Source of the DNA: a virus
Reading direction: 5' to 3' (one strand)
DNA length: 64,000 nt
IMG/VR virus record: IMGVR_UViG_3300047510_002062
Span: 3,705-67,704 of that record
Position 1 is the first letter of the stretch. Each line of letters begins with the position of its first letter. Shown piece by piece: positions 27,589-59,290 of this stretch. The notes beneath the pieces are model-generated. The model was not told the origin of the DNA. It was given only the letters and a program-made list of their open reading frames with translations, and did not search any database. The translations under genes and the position numbers were made by a program.

Positions 27589-27662
27589 TCGGGATGATAG
27601 GATTTGAACCTACGGCCCCTCGCTCCCAAAGCGAGTGCTCTACCAAACTGAGCTACATCCCG
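27589..27662 (-). tRNA. tRNA-Pro (TGG), no encoded CCA
   Basis: CGGGATGTAGCTCAGTTTGGTAGAGCACTCGCTTTGGGAGCGAGGGGCCGTAGGTTCAAATCCTATCATCCCGA folds as a cloverleaf. Confidence 0.95.
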
Positions 27663-27737
27663 TGGAGCCCCCTATCGGATTTGAACCGATGACCAACGGT
27701 TTACAAAACCGTTGCTCTACCACTGAGCTAAAGAGGC
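27663..27737 (-). tRNA. tRNA-Thr (TGT), CCA encoded
   Basis: GCCTCTTTAGCTCAGTGGTAGAGCAACGGTTTTGTAAACCGTTGGTCATCGGTTCAAATCCGATAGGGGGCTCCA. Confidence 0.95.
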
Positions 27738-27740
27738 AAT

Positions 27741-27820
27741 TGGGGGGCATCCGTATAAACTGGATCTTTTGTACTCCCCCCTTGTGTCTTAGGAGATAAA
27801 CACAACTGAATTGCAGTTGC
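27741..27820 (-). ncRNA. Putative structured small RNA/leader upstream of tRNA-Thr
   Basis: Hairpins CAACTG/CAGTTG, TGTGTTT/AAGACACA and GGGGGG...ATCC/GGAT...CCCCCC between a sigma70 promoter and tRNA-Thr. Confidence 0.45.
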
Positions 27821-27826
27821 TTAAGT

Positions 27827-27855
27827 ATCATAGTATATATTCAAAAATTTGTCAA
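27827..27855 (-). promoter_or_regulatory. sigma70-type early promoter TTGACA-N17-TATGAT
   Basis: Consensus -35, 17-nt spacer, near-consensus -10, upstream of tRNA-Thr/Pro. Confidence 0.8.
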
Positions 27856-27859
27856 GCCA

Positions 27860-28177
27860 TTAATCTTTTGGAATTAATTCTGGTCTATCAACTAAAACTG
27901 GAAAAAGGCATGGATGAACTTCTTCCATTATTAAGTAAGAAGATGATCTATGAAGTTCAGCAGGAGTATAAATTTTTCCGTTTTGATGCTTATCTGCATT
28001 AGCAATTAAAGTTGGGTCCCAAACACTAATCTCTGGTATATCATCAAATGTGTAAGGATAACCTTCAATAAAATACATTTTAACAATGTATTTGCTAGAT
28101 CCAGGTTCAGATGGATCATACCAACACCAATCCATGCTAACACTATATTTGTGAGACATAAAAACCTCTGTCAGCAT
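27860..28177 (-). CDS. Conserved cyanophage hypothetical protein
   Basis: IVKMYFIEGYPYTFDD...SSYLIMEEVHPCLFPV; late-type GATAAATA at 28185-28192 upstream. Confidence 0.7.
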   Translation of the reverse strand: MLTEVFMSHKYSVSMDWCWYDPSEPGSSKYIVKMYFIEGYPYTFDDIPEISVWDPTLIANADKHQNGKIYTPAELHRSSSYLIMEEVHPCLFPVLVDRPELIPKD

Positions 28178-28279
28178 ATGAAAATATTTATCGGGGGTTT
28201 TGATCGATTTTTTTGGCGGGATTTTTTACGACCCTAAAGTGATTTTAAAAGTTGATTTTTGTTGAAGTTTTTGTAAGAA

Positions 28280-28362
28280 TAGGACGAGGGGGACTTGAAC
28301 CCCCACAGGCAATGCCCGACAGATTTTAAGTCTGGTGTGTCTACCGATTCCACCACCGTCCC
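28280..28362 (-). tRNA. tRNA-Leu (TAA)
   Basis: GGGACGGTGGTGGAATCGGTAGACACACCAGACTTAAAATCTG...GGGGTTCAAGTCCCCCTCGTCCTA, long variable arm. Confidence 0.93.
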
Positions 28363-28375
28363 GTGTTGTAAGACA

Positions 28376-28404
28376 ATCATAGCAGGTCTTGCTTGGATTG
28401 TCAA
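28376..28404 (-). promoter_or_regulatory. sigma70-type early promoter TTGACA-N17-TATGAT
   Basis: Lies between the two tRNA-Leu genes, immediately upstream of tRNA-Leu(TAA). Confidence 0.8.
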
Positions 28405-28405
28405 G

Positions 28406-28486
28406 TGCCCCTGGTCAGATTTGAACTGACAAACCCGTAGGCGGTTGATTTTGAGTCAACTGTGTTTACCATTTCACCACAGAGGC
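28406..28486 (-). tRNA. tRNA-Leu (CAA)
   Basis: GCCTCTGTGGTGAAATGGTAAACACAGTTGACTCAAAATCAAC...GTCAGTTCAAATCTGACCAGGGGCA. Confidence 0.93.
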
Positions 28487-28490
28487 AAGG

Positions 28491-28563
28491 TGCTCCTTGA
28501 GGGGATCGAACCCACCTGATACCGATTATGAGTCGGGTGCTTTCACCAGATAGCTAAAGGAGC
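28491..28563 (-). tRNA. tRNA with CAT anticodon (likely Ile2, otherwise elongator Met)
   Basis: GCTCCTTTAGCTATCTGGTGAAAGCACCCGACTCATAATCGG...GGTTCGATCCCCTCAAGGAGCA; G1-C72 paired so not an initiator; C4-G69 and C5-G68 present. Confidence 0.9.
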
Positions 28564-58643: not shown

Positions 58644-58672
58644 ATTTTACACAAAAAAAGTGGGGGTGTCAA
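58644..58672 (-). promoter_or_regulatory. sigma70-type promoter TTGACA-N17-TAAAAT embedded in a terminator
   Basis: The -35 lies in the hairpin loop, with a 17-nt spacer to TAAAAT. Confidence 0.65.
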
Positions 58673-58682
58673 GACCCCCACA
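58653..58682 (-). terminator. Rho-independent terminator
   Basis: GTGGGGGT-CTTGAC-ACCCCCAC followed by TTTTTTT. Confidence 0.85.
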
Positions 58683-58818
58683 TAGTTTTTTCTAACCATT
58701 CGATCATTGTAATTTCATAACATGACCAATATTTTACTCCCCTGTAAGTGCATAGATAACAAGCTGGTTTTCGGTCATCAAATTGAATGTAATGATATCT
58801 AACGTTATTATCGGACAC
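58669..58818 (-). CDS. Small peptide with DUF4278-like YRGVKY motif (49 aa from GTG; start uncertain)
   Basis: Manual translation (M)SDNNVRYHYIQFDDRKPACYLCTYRGVKYWSCYEITMIEWLEKTMWGS. Confidence 0.6.
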   Translation of the reverse strand: MSDNNVRYHYIQFDDRKPACYLCTYRGVKYWSCYEITMIEWLEKTMWGS

Positions 58819-58858: not shown

Positions 58859-58990
58859 TCATTTTTTTGATACCTCGCAGTGTCCTGCCATGCAGAGTTG
58901 TGCTTTATGTAACTTCTCTTCTTTTTGTTTCTTCTCTTTAATCAATTGAAGAGCATTAAAAACATTAGTTGTTTTTGTTGCGACAGTCAT
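58859..58990 (-). CDS. Small basic peptide, 43 aa, directly downstream of the riboswitch
   Basis: MTVATKTTNVFNALQLIKEKKQKEEKLHKAQLCMAGHCEVSKK; AGGAG RBS 7 nt before the ATG. Confidence 0.7.
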   Translation of the reverse strand: MTVATKTTNVFNALQLIKEKKQKEEKLHKAQLCMAGHCEVSKK

Positions 58991-59026
58991 AATAATACTC
59001 CTAAAGTAATAAGGTTTACTGTTGTA

Positions 59027-59255
59027 ATCCCGTTCCTTCAGTCGGCTTTTGCGTCTATTTTACACTCCTTTGGAGATATTTGCTTTACTTCCCAAACCAA
59101 ATCATTTTTAATTTGTTTTGGTAGGGGATGAGCATTTACCCTAGAAACTATCAATTGTGCTTGTAAGCAAGTTAGTATGAGTGCTTCCATAGATGAACGA
59201 TCCGTTCCGAGTCGGCTTACTTGCGTTCGCTATTTGCGAATAGCGAATGAACGAC
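59027..59255 (-). ncRNA. Tandem glutamine (glnA-class) riboswitch-like aptamers
   Basis: GTCGTTCA-[TTCGCTATT-CGCA-AATAGCGAA]-CGCAAGTAAGCCGACTCGGAACGG, then ATCGTTCA-TCTAT...ATAGA-CGCAAAAGCCGACTGAAGGAACGGGAT. This matches the CGTTCA..ACG.AAGTA..GAAGGAACG consensus as recalled. Confidence 0.75.
59038..59190 (-). CDS. 50-aa ORF nested within the second aptamer
   Basis: MEALILTCLQAQLIVSRVNAHPLPKQIKNDLVWEVKQISPKECKIDAKAD*; ATG in the P2 5' strand, TGA in the GACTGAAGGAACG segment. Confidence 0.65.
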   Translation of the reverse strand: MEALILTCLQAQLIVSRVNAHPLPKQIKNDLVWEVKQISPKECKIDAKAD

Positions 59256-59261
59256 TGGTAT

Positions 59262-59290
59262 ATCATACCAAAAATATTTATTGATGTCAA
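59262..59290 (-). promoter_or_regulatory. sigma70-type promoter TTGACA-N17-TATGAT, with late-type AATAAATA in the spacer
   Basis: Predicted +1 at about 59255 coincides with the first base of aptamer 1. Confidence 0.8.

What the first reader, a model, noticed from the sequence alone, without database searches (positions are those of the whole stretch)
59027..59218. A complete 50-codon ORF sits inside the P2 stem-loop of a riboswitch aptamer
In aptamer 2, CGTTCA is followed by TCTAT(G), which can pair with ATAGA about 130 nt later, and then by the conserved CGCAAAAGCCGACTGAAGGAACG. The ATG lies in the P2 5' strand and the TGA lies in the conserved 3' core, so translation and aptamer folding should be mutually exclusive. 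The ORF cassette is also flanked by a 9-nt direct repeat, AAGCCGACT (59210-59218 and 59040-59048). Collapsing the repeat gives one canonical aptamer with both halves of the AGTA/GAA loop-E motif. This suggests a gene captured in, or born from, a duplicated riboswitch, or a ribosome-coupled switch. I cannot verify whether this arrangement is already described.
Basis: partly seen in the sequence, partly recalled or inferred. Interest (0 to 1): 0.8.

Follow-up and report, generated by a model that had tools for sequence, protein, structure and literature searches.

The report
Protein gene nested inside glutamine riboswitch
In this T4-like cyanophage, one hairpin of a two-part glutamine-sensing RNA leader closes around a real 50-codon gene, so sensing the host's nitrogen state and translating that gene probably compete on one RNA.

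Summary
On the minus strand, a 50-codon ORF (59190-59038) starts in the 5' strand of a helix (UCUAU/AUAGA). It stops at a UGA inside the conserved 3' core of a glutamine (glnA-type) riboswitch.

The layout is common. Of 65 related phage loci with a long second unit, 60 keep an ORF from that AUG to a stop exactly 4 nt before GGAACG. The closing helix covaries. In the window's clade the ORF is under purifying selection (median dN/dS 0.145). It belongs to PHROG 504, of unknown function, with two invariant Cys and a two-helix model.

Its two copies are the strands of a covarying helix (P3) that joins the two units. Each unit carries only half of the E-loop, so the pair is one composite sensor.

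Mutual exclusion of translation and folding follows from the anatomy but is not shown. Rfam scans miss the ORF-bearing unit.

This scan has reported the same layout on at least 8 other genomes. I found no paper describing it. However, Kipkorir et al. 2024 showed a 16-codon translated uORF inside the M. tuberculosis metE B12 aptamer, so the idea is not new.

Verdict: a real new variant of a known kind.

The parts
59262..59290 (-). Promoter-like site, TTGACA-17-TATGAT with an upstream TG. It would start the transcript a few nt before unit 1.
   Evidence: 11 of 12 consensus matches. This is a consensus match only. The region as a whole has no excess of such sites (5 found against 5.4 expected).
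59248..59253 (-). CGUUCA of unit 1 (P1 5' strand plus the junction A).
   Evidence: Aligned to RF01739 positions 3-8.
59226..59247 (-). Short variable hairpin of unit 1 (UUCGCUAUU-CGCA-AAUAGCGAA).
   Evidence: formed in the MFE fold. The same 22-nt hairpin sits in unit 2 of S-PM2.
59218..59225 (-). CGCAAGUA core of unit 1. It carries the AAGUA half of the E-loop.
   Evidence: alignment to RF01739. The unit 1 core is (A/U/G)CG(C/G)AAGUA in all 102 parsed loci, but the parsing pattern required AAGUA.
59210..59217 (-).
   Evidence: it pairs with 59047-59040 in 6 of 8 positions. The helix covaries across 24 distinct strand combinations.
59200..59209 (-). CGGAACG of unit 1 plus the GAU linker. GAACG can pair with either CGUUC.
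   Evidence: The linker is 3-5 nt in all 102 parsed loci.
59194..59199 (-). CGUUCA of unit 2.
59189..59193 (-). UCUAU, the 5' strand of the helix that closes around the gene. It contains the A and U of the start codon.
59038..59190 (-). Nested gene of 50 codons (PHROG 504 family, unknown function). It has two invariant Cys. The last 7 codons (I D A K A D stop) are written by the riboswitch core.
59054..59058 (-). AUAGA, the 3' strand of the closing helix (codons 44-45 of the gene).
59048..59053 (-). CGCAAA core of unit 2. It has no GUA, so it lacks the 5' half of an E-loop.
   Evidence: ACGCA(A/C/G)A-type in 100 of 102 loci; the other two read ACGCATC and ACGCAAC. None has AAGUA.
59040..59047 (-). 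Its last U is the first base of the stop codon UGA.
59031..59039 (-). GAA (3' half of the E-loop) plus GGAACG (P1 3' strand). The G and A of the stop codon lie here.
58859..59002 (-). AGGAG Shine-Dalgarno (59002-58998) and the downstream 43-aa ORF (58990-58859), presumably the gene the leader controls.
   Evidence: phrog_545, E 1.2e-4. There is no DUF4278 match here, unlike relatives.
58660..58681 (-). Terminator-like hairpin plus a T run. It is the likely end of the roughly 600-nt transcription unit.

Best explanation
The element is a composite, two-unit glutamine (glnA-type) riboswitch leader of a T4-like cyanophage. The variable hairpin of its second unit has been expanded into a complete, selected protein gene.

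Shown here:
1. The two units are not independent aptamers. Unit 1 has only the AAGUA half of the E-loop and unit 2 has only the GAA half. The segment after AAGUA in unit 1 pairs with the segment before GAA in unit 2 to form helix P3.
2. A 5-bp or longer covarying helix joins the sequence just after CGUUCA of unit 2 to the sequence just before ACGCA, about 130 nt downstream.
3. The enclosed ORF is a real gene. Its start codon lies in the 5' strand of that helix. Its last codons and stop codon are written by the 3' strand, P3 and the E-loop.

Inferred:
- A ribosome initiating at the AUG, or terminating at the UGA, must unwind the closing helix, P3 and the 3' strand of P1. A folded, glutamine-bound sensor buries the AUG.
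- The gene should therefore be translated mainly on nascent RNA or at low glutamine. The sensor can act on the downstream small ORF only when the nested gene is free of ribosomes.
- By analogy with the Synechocystis gifB leader (Klahn 2018), glutamine would turn the downstream ORF on. The two small proteins would then be expressed reciprocally.

The function of the nested protein, a two-helix hairpin with a conserved Cys pair, is unknown.
For: Identity of the RNA:
- RF01739 matches unit 1 at 59199-59255 (28.3 bits, E 6.8e-4).
- ORF-less relatives (S-PM2, S-CREM1) have the same cores with a short hairpin in unit 2.

Composite architecture:
- 102 loci were parsed, giving 24 distinct P3 strand combinations. 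All pair except at one or two fixed A.C positions. Compensatory changes occur at the terminal pairs: U-A, A-U and G-C at one end, A-U, C-G and G-U at the other.
- On alignment A3, 91.2% of cells are paired, against 47.7% or less when the partner is slid. The covariation score is 0.145 against 0.088, and 0 of 500 shuffles reach it.
- Junctions in which unit 1 has a full E-loop are rare: 3 of 120 rows.

Closing helix:
- 62 of 65 loci have at least 5 contiguous pairs.
- Pair types at position 3 are UA 7, UG 4, CG 18. At position 4 they are AU 7, CG 15, UA 5, UG 2. At position 5 they are UA 7, AU 15, CG 1, UG 3, plus 3 mismatches.

Real gene:
- 60 of 65 loci are open from the AUG to the stop at -4, giving 60 distinct proteins of 49-66 aa. 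Shuffled interiors are open in 2.4% of trials.
- In the window's clade (10 sequences, 41 interior codons), pN is below pS in 45 of 45 pairs. The median dN/dS is 0.145 over 39 pairs. Variable columns by codon position are 25, 9 and 36.
- The ORF matches PHROG 504 at E 1.4e-5; S-SSM7's copy matches at 2e-21.
- 360 representatives of 50%-identity clusters match at E<=1e-3.
- C8 and C43 are invariant in 55 sequences.
- The AlphaFold2 model has pLDDT 85 and two helices.

RNA pairing takes precedence over the exact stop:
- In S-SRM01 a compensatory A-U to C-G change in P3 removes the UGA, and the ORF simply runs 5 codons further.

Position of the start codon:
- In 59 of 60 ORFs the A of the AUG is the 4th to 6th nucleotide of the helix strand.

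Precedent for the mechanism:
- Kipkorir 2024 (PMC11260477, sections read) found that a translated uORF in the metE B12 aptamer suppresses MetE.
Against: - No experiment here shows glutamine binding, translation of the ORF, or any regulation.
- Nearest-neighbour energies do not favour the proposed fold. The composite structure is -48.2 kcal/mol and the simple tandem -49.8, against an MFE of -56.1. The MFE lacks the closing helix. The case rests on covariation.
- Neither unit reaches the Rfam gathering score (28.3 against 35). The gathering-threshold scan of the window finds only tRNAs.
- The P1 strands never vary. I therefore cannot tell a nested topology (outer P1 plus an inner GAACG-loop-CGUUC hairpin) from two local P1 helices bridged by P3.
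- The loci were collected with an exact junction motif taken from this window and were not dereplicated beyond distinct sequences. The frequencies are therefore biased.
- In this window the downstream ORF is not a DUF4278/IF17-like gene. No clear anti-SD pairing is visible either, unlike the CUCUUUAA/UUAAGGAG pairing in the DSL-LC03/S-CREM1 clade.
- 5 of 65 loci depart from the stop-at-minus-4 rule.
Confidence: 0.7

Rival explanations
1. Passenger gene. The small gene sits in a loop that tolerates any insertion, as endonuclease genes sit in loops of group I introns. The sensor and the gene do not regulate each other in any useful way, and the overlap is only genome economy.
For: - The hairpin is the most variable part of the aptamer. 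Short hairpins of many lengths occur in the same position.
- Related phages differ by presence or absence of the ORF (against 17, 19, 20).
- The same protein family (phrog_13397) is found in unit 1 of some loci and in unit 2 of others. That pattern suggests cassette-like movement.
- The RNA-encoded tail of the protein is non-helical in the model. The last ten residues have a mean pLDDT of 71, against 91-94 for the helices.
Against: - The start codon lies inside the closing helix in 59 of 60 ORFs, and the stop lies at one fixed core position in 60 of 65. An indifferent passenger could start and stop anywhere in the loop.
- Ribosomes cannot avoid unwinding P3 and P1 at termination, so some coupling is physically hard to avoid.
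Confidence: 0.2
2. Unit 2 is a dead remnant. The 3' core after the ORF is conserved only because it encodes the protein's C-terminus (DAKAD), and only unit 1 is a working aptamer that controls the 50-aa gene as its 'downstream peptide'.
For: - Only unit 1 is found by Rfam.
- D46 and A47 are invariant in the protein alignment.
- The ORF follows unit 1 directly, as regulated ORFs follow aptamers.
Against: - Conservation continues past the stop codon (AGGAACG) and matches the core of ORF-less units.
- Unit 1 alone lacks the GAA half of the E-loop, and its P3 strand has no partner without unit 2.
- The closing helix and P3 covary, including changes that alter or remove codons, as in S-SRM01.
- The tail varies (DAKAD, DAND, DAHD, DAQVD) in step with the P3 type rather than with the protein clade.
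Confidence: 0.05
3. Two independent tandem aptamers giving a steeper, pseudo-cooperative response, as published for glutamine doublets. The ORF simply lengthens hairpin 2, and there is no inter-unit helix.
For: - Published reviews list 157 glutamine doublets and 4 triplets as pseudo-cooperative tandems (PMC9481103, passages seen).
- A local 2-bp AG/CU mini-hairpin is how Infernal aligns each unit.
- The tandem fold is 1.6 kcal/mol better than the nested fold by nearest-neighbour rules.
Against: - The terminal P3 positions covary between units, not within them. The 5- and 6-nt P3 types (AGUCG/CGACU, GGACGG/CCGCCC) cannot fold locally but are complementary between units.
- Each unit has only half of the E-loop.
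- The energy model cannot score a P3 bridge between two local P1 domains.
Confidence: 0.05

Closest known systems
Glutamine-I riboswitch (glnA RNA motif, Rfam RF01739), including its tandem doublets. References: Weinberg 2010, PMC2864571; Klahn 2018, PMC6212724; Sherlock 2022, PMC9481103.
   Same: - CGUUCA ... ACG(C/G)AAGUA ... GAAGGAACG cores, a variable hairpin after CGUUCA, and P3 between the E-loop halves.
- Location in a 5' leader in front of small ORFs. In relatives these are DUF4278/IF17-like.
- Cyanobacterial and marine distribution.
   Different: - A complete 49-66 aa gene replaces the hairpin loop.
- The E-loop and P3 are split between the two units.
- Neither unit reaches the Rfam threshold.
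- The tandem survey counted arrangements only if no ORF intervened and dropped gaps over 300 nt (passages seen). It was therefore unlikely to score this form.
uMetE2, a translated uORF inside the M. tuberculosis metE B12 riboswitch aptamer (Kipkorir et al. 2024, PMC11260477).
   Same: - An ORF lies within an aptamer, in a peripheral extension.
- The authors state that translation and ligand-induced folding are presumably mutually exclusive.
- A start-codon mutation raises downstream expression more than 10-fold.
   Different: - uMetE2 has 16 codons, a UUG start and limited conservation, and it is unknown whether the peptide matters.
- Here the ORF is a widespread, selected protein family.
- Here the start and stop are built into conserved helices.
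- The ligand class and host differ.
- Nothing here has been tested experimentally.
Group I introns of T4-type phages with protein genes in their loops, for example td/I-TevI (review PMC3984707, passages seen).
   Same: - A protein gene is housed in a loop of a functional structured RNA in a T4-like phage.
- Translation is known to interfere with folding of the RNA and has to be coordinated with it.
   Different: - The RNA here is a metabolite sensor, not a ribozyme.
- The gene is not an endonuclease, and there is no sign of homing.
- The start and stop codons lie in core helices rather than inside the loop.
Leader-peptide attenuators and dual-function RNAs such as SgrS/SgrT and RNAIII/hld (recalled from general knowledge, no call).
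   Same: One RNA both encodes a small protein and acts through its structure. The position of the ribosome decides which structure forms.
   Different: - No run of regulatory codons is conserved. The invariant residues are only C8, C43, D46 and A47.
- The structure that is sensed is a ligand-binding aptamer.

Membership tests
Glutamine-I riboswitch (glnA RNA, RF01739) | P1 formed by CGUUC and GAACG | tested here: met
   Both strands are present twice, at 59253-59249 and 59199-59195 (CGUUC) and at 59207-59203 and 59035-59031 (GAACG). They never vary across loci, so which strand pairs with which cannot be decided.
Glutamine-I riboswitch (glnA RNA, RF01739) | Variable hairpin directly after CGUUCA, closed next to ACG | tested here: met
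   Unit 1 has a 9-bp hairpin. Unit 2 has the long-range helix UCUAU/AUAGA, with covariation in 65 loci.
Glutamine-I riboswitch (glnA RNA, RF01739) | E-loop halves AAGUA and GAA flanking helix P3 within one aptamer | tested here: not met
   Neither unit has both halves. Unit 1 has AAGUA and unit 2 has GAA. The feature is met only by the two units taken together, with P3 formed between them.
Glutamine-I riboswitch (glnA RNA, RF01739) | Score at or above Rfam's gathering threshold (35 bits) | tested here: not met
   Unit 1 scores 28.3 bits and unit 2 is not detected. The gathering scan of the whole window finds no riboswitch. In relatives, only ORF-less units score, at 24-35 bits.
Glutamine-I riboswitch (glnA RNA, RF01739) | Selective binding of L-glutamine | not testable with these tools
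   Needs in-line probing or ITC.
Glutamine-I riboswitch (glnA RNA, RF01739) | Sits in the leader of a DUF4278 (IF17-like) or nitrogen-metabolism gene | tested here: inconclusive
   The window's downstream ORF matches phrog_545 only, at E 1.2e-4, with no Pfam hit. Relatives match DUF4278: P-SSM2 at 29 bits (cut-off 25.3), and DSL-LC03, S-SRM01, DSL-LC02 and S-PM2 at 20-23 bits.
PHROG 504 (phage small protein, unknown function) | Profile match over most of the protein | tested here: met
   The window ORF matches at E 1.4e-5 (residues 6-48 on profile positions 10-52 of 53). P-SSM2, P-HM1 and S-SSM7 homologues match at 4e-8 to 2e-21.
Leader-peptide (ribosome-stalling) attenuator | Conserved run of codons for the sensed amino acid in a short, otherwise unconstrained peptide | tested here: not met
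   No conserved Gln positions. The invariant residues in 55 sequences are C8, C43, D46 and A47. The protein is under purifying selection along its length.
Mobile loop ORF of the group I intron kind (homing endonuclease) | Nuclease family domain | tested here: not met
   No Pfam family at E<=1. The model is a two-helix hairpin of 50 aa.

The most novel reading that the evidence does not exclude
The nested gene is a built-in ribosome gate that turns a glutamine sensor into a two-output toggle.

- On nascent RNA, or at low glutamine, ribosomes load on the exposed AUG. They make the Cys-pair protein and keep the sensor unfolded.
- When glutamine rises, the composite sensor closes around the gene. 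It silences the gene and switches on the downstream small protein.

The phage would thus read host nitrogen status and translation capacity on one roughly 230-nt RNA and express two antagonistic small proteins reciprocally. The conserved riboswitch cores would also act as portable homology arms that let different small-gene cassettes swap between hairpins.
Probability: 0.3. Interest if true: 0.85.

Novelty: new variant of a known kind. Interest (0 to 1): 0.72.

Why it matters
Riboswitch aptamers are normally treated as non-coding, and surveys of tandem riboswitches discard arrangements that contain an ORF. This case shows three things.

- A conserved protein family is housed inside a metabolite sensor in many cyanomyoviruses.
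- The start and stop codons of that gene are written into the sensor's helices.
- The so-called tandem glutamine riboswitch of these phages is one composite structure held together by an inter-unit helix.

If translation and sensing do compete, this would be a natural and widespread case of ribosome-gated ligand sensing. It could be tested directly in cultured phage-host pairs (P-SSM2, P-HM1, S-SSM7). It would bear on how cyanophages read host nitrogen status.

There are practical consequences as well. Covariance-model scans miss these units. Gene callers mis-call the ORF, producing N-terminal extensions through unit 1 and fusions that read the TGA through.

Tried and rejected
**Rfam.** The gathering-threshold scan of the whole window found only 5 tRNAs. 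The permissive scan found unit 1 below threshold and nothing for unit 2.

**Thermodynamic folding.** The MFE of 278 nt has a z-score of -2.78 but does not contain the closing helix. Constrained folds are 6-8 kcal/mol worse than the MFE. Folding energy therefore neither supports nor excludes the model.

**Direct repeat as a duplication or insertion scar.** Rejected. The same two segments occur in ORF-less tandems, and in other loci they are complementary rather than repeated.

**Leader-peptide attenuation by Gln codons.** Rejected. No Gln positions are conserved.

**Function of the nested protein.**
- Pfam gave nothing at E<=1.
- The ESM Atlas gave only unnamed clusters at 0.85-0.86.
- Foldseek against the PDB gave nothing better than E 4.8.
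- 201 close homologues are all 'hypothetical' or carry obviously spurious names.

**Free-standing relatives outside a riboswitch.**
- The longer hits proved to be artefacts when read. They were a TGA read through into the downstream gene, an extension through unit 1, and an adaptor chimera.
- 'Captured' versus 'born in place' therefore stays open.

**Cellular hosts.** The genome-contig scan gave 38 matches. By my reading, 15 are riboswitch-like. All 15 lie in low-GC (30-43%) contigs of MAGs or single-cell assemblies with assorted labels, and are probably phage DNA. None is clearly chromosomal. This is not evidence of absence from hosts.

**Expression.**
- The look-up of sequencing runs found only small shares (0.11 or less) in 24 runs.
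- I laid 4 of those 24 runs, all kept as contigs. Relatives' contigs in RNA libraries cover 59031-59226 (one 455-nt contig at about 80% identity, one 171-nt contig). Other contigs skip the ORF, which matches ORF-less relatives.
- Contigs in RNA libraries cannot show transcription, strand or ends. I draw nothing from this.

**Not used.** Complex prediction was not run, because I make no binding claim.

**Papers.**
- Not held, so not read: Ames & Breaker 2011 and Ren et al. 2015. They may describe tandem glutamine aptamers in more detail than I could check.
The alignments of Weinberg 2010, the tables of Klahn 2018 and Table S7 of the S-CREM1 paper were not seen and could bear on novelty.
- Searches for a description of this layout were. 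None described a gene nested in a glutamine riboswitch. led to the metE uORF paper.
Full report
**What is in the window.**
The feature lies on the minus strand of a T4-like cyanophage fragment. The window is part of a 67,704-nt IMG/VR virus record that holds one such element. Its neighbours include thyX-like and phoH-like ORFs (named by me from the translations, not tested) and a tRNA cluster. Reading 5' to 3', the layout is:

| Position (minus strand) | Element |
|---|---|
| 59290-59262 | Promoter-like site, TTGACA-17-TATGAT |
| 59253-59203 | Unit 1: CGUUCA, a 9-bp hairpin, CGCAAGUA, AGCCGACU, CGGAACG |
| 59202-59200 | GAU linker |
| 59199-59031 | Unit 2: CGUUCA, UCUAUG..., about 130 nt, ...AUAGA, CGCAAA, AGCCGACU, GAA, GGAACG |
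| 59002-58998 | AGGAG Shine-Dalgarno |
| 58990-58859 | 43-aa ORF |
| 58681-58660 | Terminator-like hairpin |

The 50-codon ORF runs from 59190 to 59038. Its AUG is the AUG of UCUAUG. Its UGA is made of the last U of AGCCGACU and the G and A of GAAGG.

**It is a glutamine riboswitch that standard scans largely miss.**
- At Rfam's gathering thresholds the window yields only five tRNAs.
- A permissive scan finds RF01739 on unit 1 at 28.3 bits (threshold 35, E 6.8e-4) and nothing on unit 2.
- In five named cyanophages only ORF-less units are detected, at 24-35 bits.
- S-PM2 and S-CREM1 carry the same two cores with a short hairpin in unit 2. S-CREM1's is annotated as a glnA riboswitch in the record.
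- P-SSM2, P-HM1 and S-SSM7 carry an ORF there, as do the closer relatives DSL-LC03, S-SRM01 and DSL-LC02.

**How general the layout is.**
- Adding the eight named records and the window gives 128 junctions. In 67 the next GGAACG lies 152-225 nt after CGUUCA. In 38 it lies 32-69 nt after. In 23 there is none within 330 nt.
- Most of those 23 are chance matches in GC-rich contigs. Four are cut by contig ends.
- 102 loci could be parsed as two-unit elements.
- Among the 102 loci in which both units could be read, the counts were:

| Unit 1 | Unit 2 | Loci |
|---|---|---|
| short | long | 53 |
| short | short | 28 |
| long | long | 12 |
| long | short | 9 |

- So 74 of 102 carry at least one long, ORF-bearing hairpin.
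- The sample was chosen by a motif from this window and is not dereplicated. These are not population frequencies.

**The ORF is a gene.**
- All 65 long unit 2 loci with a recognisable core have an ORF of 49-69 codons starting at the first AUG, 9-16 nt after the C of CGUUCA.
- In 60 of them the frame ends at a UGA (42 loci) or UAA (18 loci) exactly 4 nt before GGAACG. These give 60 distinct proteins of 49-66 aa.
- Shuffled interiors stay open in 286 of 12000 trials. The other two frames are open in 1 and 0 of 60.
- In the window's own clade I compared 10 sequences over 41 interior codons, leaving out the codons that overlap the conserved RNA. pN is below pS in all 45 pairs.
- The median dN/dS is 0.145 over the 39 pairs with a finite dS. 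Synonymous sites are near saturation, so the ratio is rough. Variable columns fall 25, 9 and 36 on codon positions 1, 2 and 3.
- The protein matches PHROG 504, of unknown function (E 1.4e-5; 2e-21 for S-SSM7's copy). It has no Pfam family.
- A profile of 55 members finds 360 representatives of 50%-identity clusters at E<=1e-3 and 77 at <=1e-10.
- Only C8, C43, D46 and A47 are invariant. D46 and A47 are dictated by the RNA core GAC GCA, but the two cysteines are not.
- AlphaFold2 gives two helices (residues 8-20 and 25-38) at mean pLDDT 85, with a less confident tail.
- Neither Foldseek against the PDB nor the ESM Atlas gives a lead to function.

**The closing helix is real.**
- I counted outward from the U-A pair next to the junction. 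62 of 65 loci have at least 5 contiguous pairs and the other 3 have 4.
- There are 29 distinct strand combinations. The pairs change on both sides:

| Helix position | Pair types (distinct combinations) |
|---|---|
| 3 | U-A 7, U-G 4, C-G 18 |
| 4 | A-U 7, C-G 15, U-A 5, U-G 2 |
| 5 | U-A 7, A-U 15, C-G 1, U-G 3, mismatches 3 |

- Permuting the 3' strands among the combinations gives a mean of 4.09 contiguous pairs against 5.79 observed. None of 2000 permutations reaches the observed value.
- In 59 of 60 ORFs the A of the AUG is the 4th to 6th nucleotide of the 5' strand. A formed helix therefore always holds part of the start codon.

**The 'direct repeat' is a helix, and the two units are one structure.**
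- The segment between AAGUA and CGGAACG in unit 1 was compared with the segment between ACGCAxx and (G/A)AAGG in unit 2. The 102 loci give 24 distinct combinations.
- The commonest is AGUCG with CGACU (34 loci, 5 of 5 pairs). The window's AGCCGACU with AGCCGACU follows (25 loci, 6 of 8 pairs, with A.C oppositions at fixed positions 3 and 6).
- The variants are compensatory:
  - AGCCGACA with UGCCGACU
  - AGCCGACG with CGCCGACU
  - CGCCGACU with AGCCGACG
  - AGUCA with UGACU
  - GGACGG with CCGCCC
  - GGACGACG with CGCCGCCC
  - AGACAACU with AGUUGACU
- The 5- and 6-nt types cannot fold on themselves. The changes at the ends would break a local mini-hairpin in both units, yet they keep the inter-unit pair.
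- On a MAFFT alignment of 52 loci (A3) I tested P3 plus the first three pairs of the closing helix. 91.2% of cells are paired, against 15-48% when the partner is slid by 1-3 columns. The covariation score is 0.145 against 0.088 in shuffles, and 0 of 500 shuffles reach it. Only three pairs of the closing helix could be tested this way, because MAFFT does not left-justify its 5' strand.
- Unit 1 always has AAGUA. Unit 2 never does: its core reads ACGCAAA in 89 loci, ACGCACA in 9, ACGCAGA in 2 and two other forms in 1 each. Unit 2 always carries (G/A)AAGG.
- That unit 1 lacks GAAGG was imposed by my search pattern. I therefore also scanned for junctions whose first unit ends in AAGGAACG. Of 120 rows, only L173, L218 and L237 are glutamine-type.
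- So the canonical aptamer features are met by the pair of units, not by either unit alone. These features are the two E-loop halves flanking P3.
- The four P1 strands never vary, so two topologies remain possible. One is fully nested, with an outer P1 and an inner GAACG-loop-CGUUC hairpin. The other has two local P1 helices bridged by P3.

**RNA constraints and coding constraints interlock.**
- The last base of P3 is U in 64 of 65 ORF-bearing units, where it supplies the stop codon. It is U in 29 and C in 8 of 37 ORF-less units.
- In S-SRM01 the first P3 pair has changed from A-U to C-G. This destroys the UGA, and the ORF runs five codons further to the next stop. The pairing was kept and the exact stop was not.
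- Four other loci end earlier or run on.
- The protein's tail (DAKAD, DAND, DAHD, DAQVD) follows the P3 type.

**Other nested genes.**
- In 22 loci the hairpin of unit 1 is also long (191-229 nt). It holds an ORF of 59-68 codons that starts 10-13 nt after CGUUCA. These ORFs also have a hydrophobic N-terminus and two Cys.
- I scanned eight of them. Four match phrog_6471 and two match phrog_13397 (one with a weak phrog_504 match). Two match nothing.
- The phrog_13397-type protein sits in unit 1 in L028 and L048. By similarity of the printed translations, it sits in unit 2 in L016, L037 and L120.
- The window's unit 1 hairpin is letter for letter the unit 2 hairpin of S-PM2. Parts have evidently been exchanged between units.

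**How it most likely works.**
What is shown is the anatomy described above. What follows is inference.
- A ribosome on the AUG covers CGUUCA of unit 2 and the 5' strand of the closing helix. A ribosome at the UGA covers the 3' strands of P3, the E-loop and P1. Translation and the folded sensor therefore exclude each other.
- The 3' partner strands are transcribed about 130 nt after the AUG. The first ribosomes can thus load before the sensor can form.
- The ORF has no strong Shine-Dalgarno (only GGA 11-13 nt upstream), whereas the downstream ORF has AGGAG 7 nt upstream.
- In the Synechocystis gifB leader, glutamine binding activates translation (Klahn 2018; abstract and passages seen). In the DSL-LC03/S-CREM1 clade the sequence just after GGAACG (CUCUUUAA) is complementary to the downstream UUAAGGAG, which fits that model.
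- In this window no such pairing is evident. Only a small hairpin holds part of the Shine-Dalgarno. The downstream ORF is phrog_545-like rather than DUF4278-like.
- I therefore give the architecture about 0.85 and the reciprocal-expression mechanism roughly even odds. That makes 0.7 for the statement as worded.

**Comparison with what is known.**
- The riboswitch class, its tandem occurrence and its link to small DUF4278 proteins are published (PMC2864571, section on glnA read; PMC6212724, passages).
- The review of tandem riboswitches counts 157 glutamine doublets and 4 triplets as pseudo-cooperative. It states that tandem domains were accepted only if no ORF intervened, and that gaps over 300 nt were excluded (PMC9481103, passages).
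- Cyanophage genome papers list glnA motifs without further analysis (PMC9964418; PMC9004378; PMC12379486).
- Eight searches found no description of a gene nested in a glutamine riboswitch or of the split E-loop.
- The underlying idea is in print, however. Kipkorir et al. 2024 (PMC11260477; abstract, section 19 and discussion passages read) report uMetE2, a 16-codon translated uORF in the P9-P10 extension of the M. tuberculosis metE B12 aptamer. Its start-codon mutation raises MetE expression more than 10-fold, and the authors write that its translation and ligand-induced folding are presumably mutually exclusive. They also note its limited conservation.
- Group I introns of T4-type phages are the other close analogue (PMC3984707, passages).
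- Two key papers, Ames & Breaker 2011 and Ren et al. 2015, are not held, and supplements were closed.

**Earlier notes of this scan.**
The same layout was reported on at least eight other genomes. Their phrase 'two interlocked sensor cores' prompted me to test inter-unit pairing. The test is my own. Those notes say no paper was found. That still holds for this layout, but the metE uORF paper is a partial precedent they did not name.

**Verdict.**
This is a real, widespread and so far undescribed variant of the glutamine riboswitch. It is a composite two-unit sensor whose hairpins house selected small genes. The regulatory consequences remain to be tested.

Noticed in passing
L009, L014, L025, L028, L040, L043, L048, L053, L063, L066, L069, L070, L077, L083, L090, L092, L098, L101 and others (22 loci): The hairpin of unit 1 can also hold a gene of 59-68 codons. 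These ORFs have a signal-peptide-like hydrophobic N-terminus and two Cys, and match phrog_6471, phrog_13397 or no family. Twelve loci have genes in both hairpins.
   Followed up: partly
L002 (S-SRM01) 1517-1705: A compensatory A-U to C-G change in the inter-unit helix removes the UGA. The nested ORF then runs five codons further, into the downstream leader.
   Followed up: yes
window 59226-59247 (-) and L005 (S-PM2) 633-654: The 22-nt hairpin TTCGCTATTCGCAAATAGCGAA is the unit 1 hairpin here and the unit 2 hairpin in S-PM2-type tandems. This suggests exchange of parts between units.
   Followed up: no
L173, L218, L237: A rare variant in which unit 1 is a complete aptamer with both AAGUA and GAAGG. 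It is followed by CGTTCA and an ORF of the same general kind (...LSC..A...).
   Followed up: no
P0122, P0131, P0233, P0192, P0139: Public gene calls of this family include artefacts: N-terminal extensions translated through unit 1, fusions to the downstream DUF4278 gene where TGA was read as W, and one adaptor chimera.
   Followed up: partly
window 58669-58818 (-): A 49-aa ORF with a GTG start lies between the 43-aa ORF and the terminator. It contains a YRGVKY motif reminiscent of the YRGV motif in relatives' DUF4278-like genes. It has no Pfam or PHROG match.
   Followed up: partly
window 58644-58681: The terminator-like hairpin reads as a terminator on both strands. It overlaps a second promoter-like site on the minus strand, TTGACA-17-TAAAAT with 11 of 12 matches.
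   Followed up: no
L132, L137, L142, L143, L157, L161, L165, L166 (genome contigs): Low-GC contigs carrying this phage-type element sit in MAGs labelled Acetobacteraceae, Dehalococcoidia, Bacteroidota, Verrucomicrobiales, Poseidoniales, Euryarchaeota and Acidimicrobiaceae. They are probably cyanophage DNA that was mis-binned.
   Followed up: no
window 27589-28563 (-): A cluster of five tRNA genes, at 51-72 bits.
   Followed up: no
L039, L108, L120, L025, L062, L092 (leader after unit 2): Some loci have an extra conserved hairpin-rich segment of about 30 nt (ACGGAUCC...GAGAAGGU...) between GGAACG and the downstream Shine-Dalgarno.
   Followed up: no
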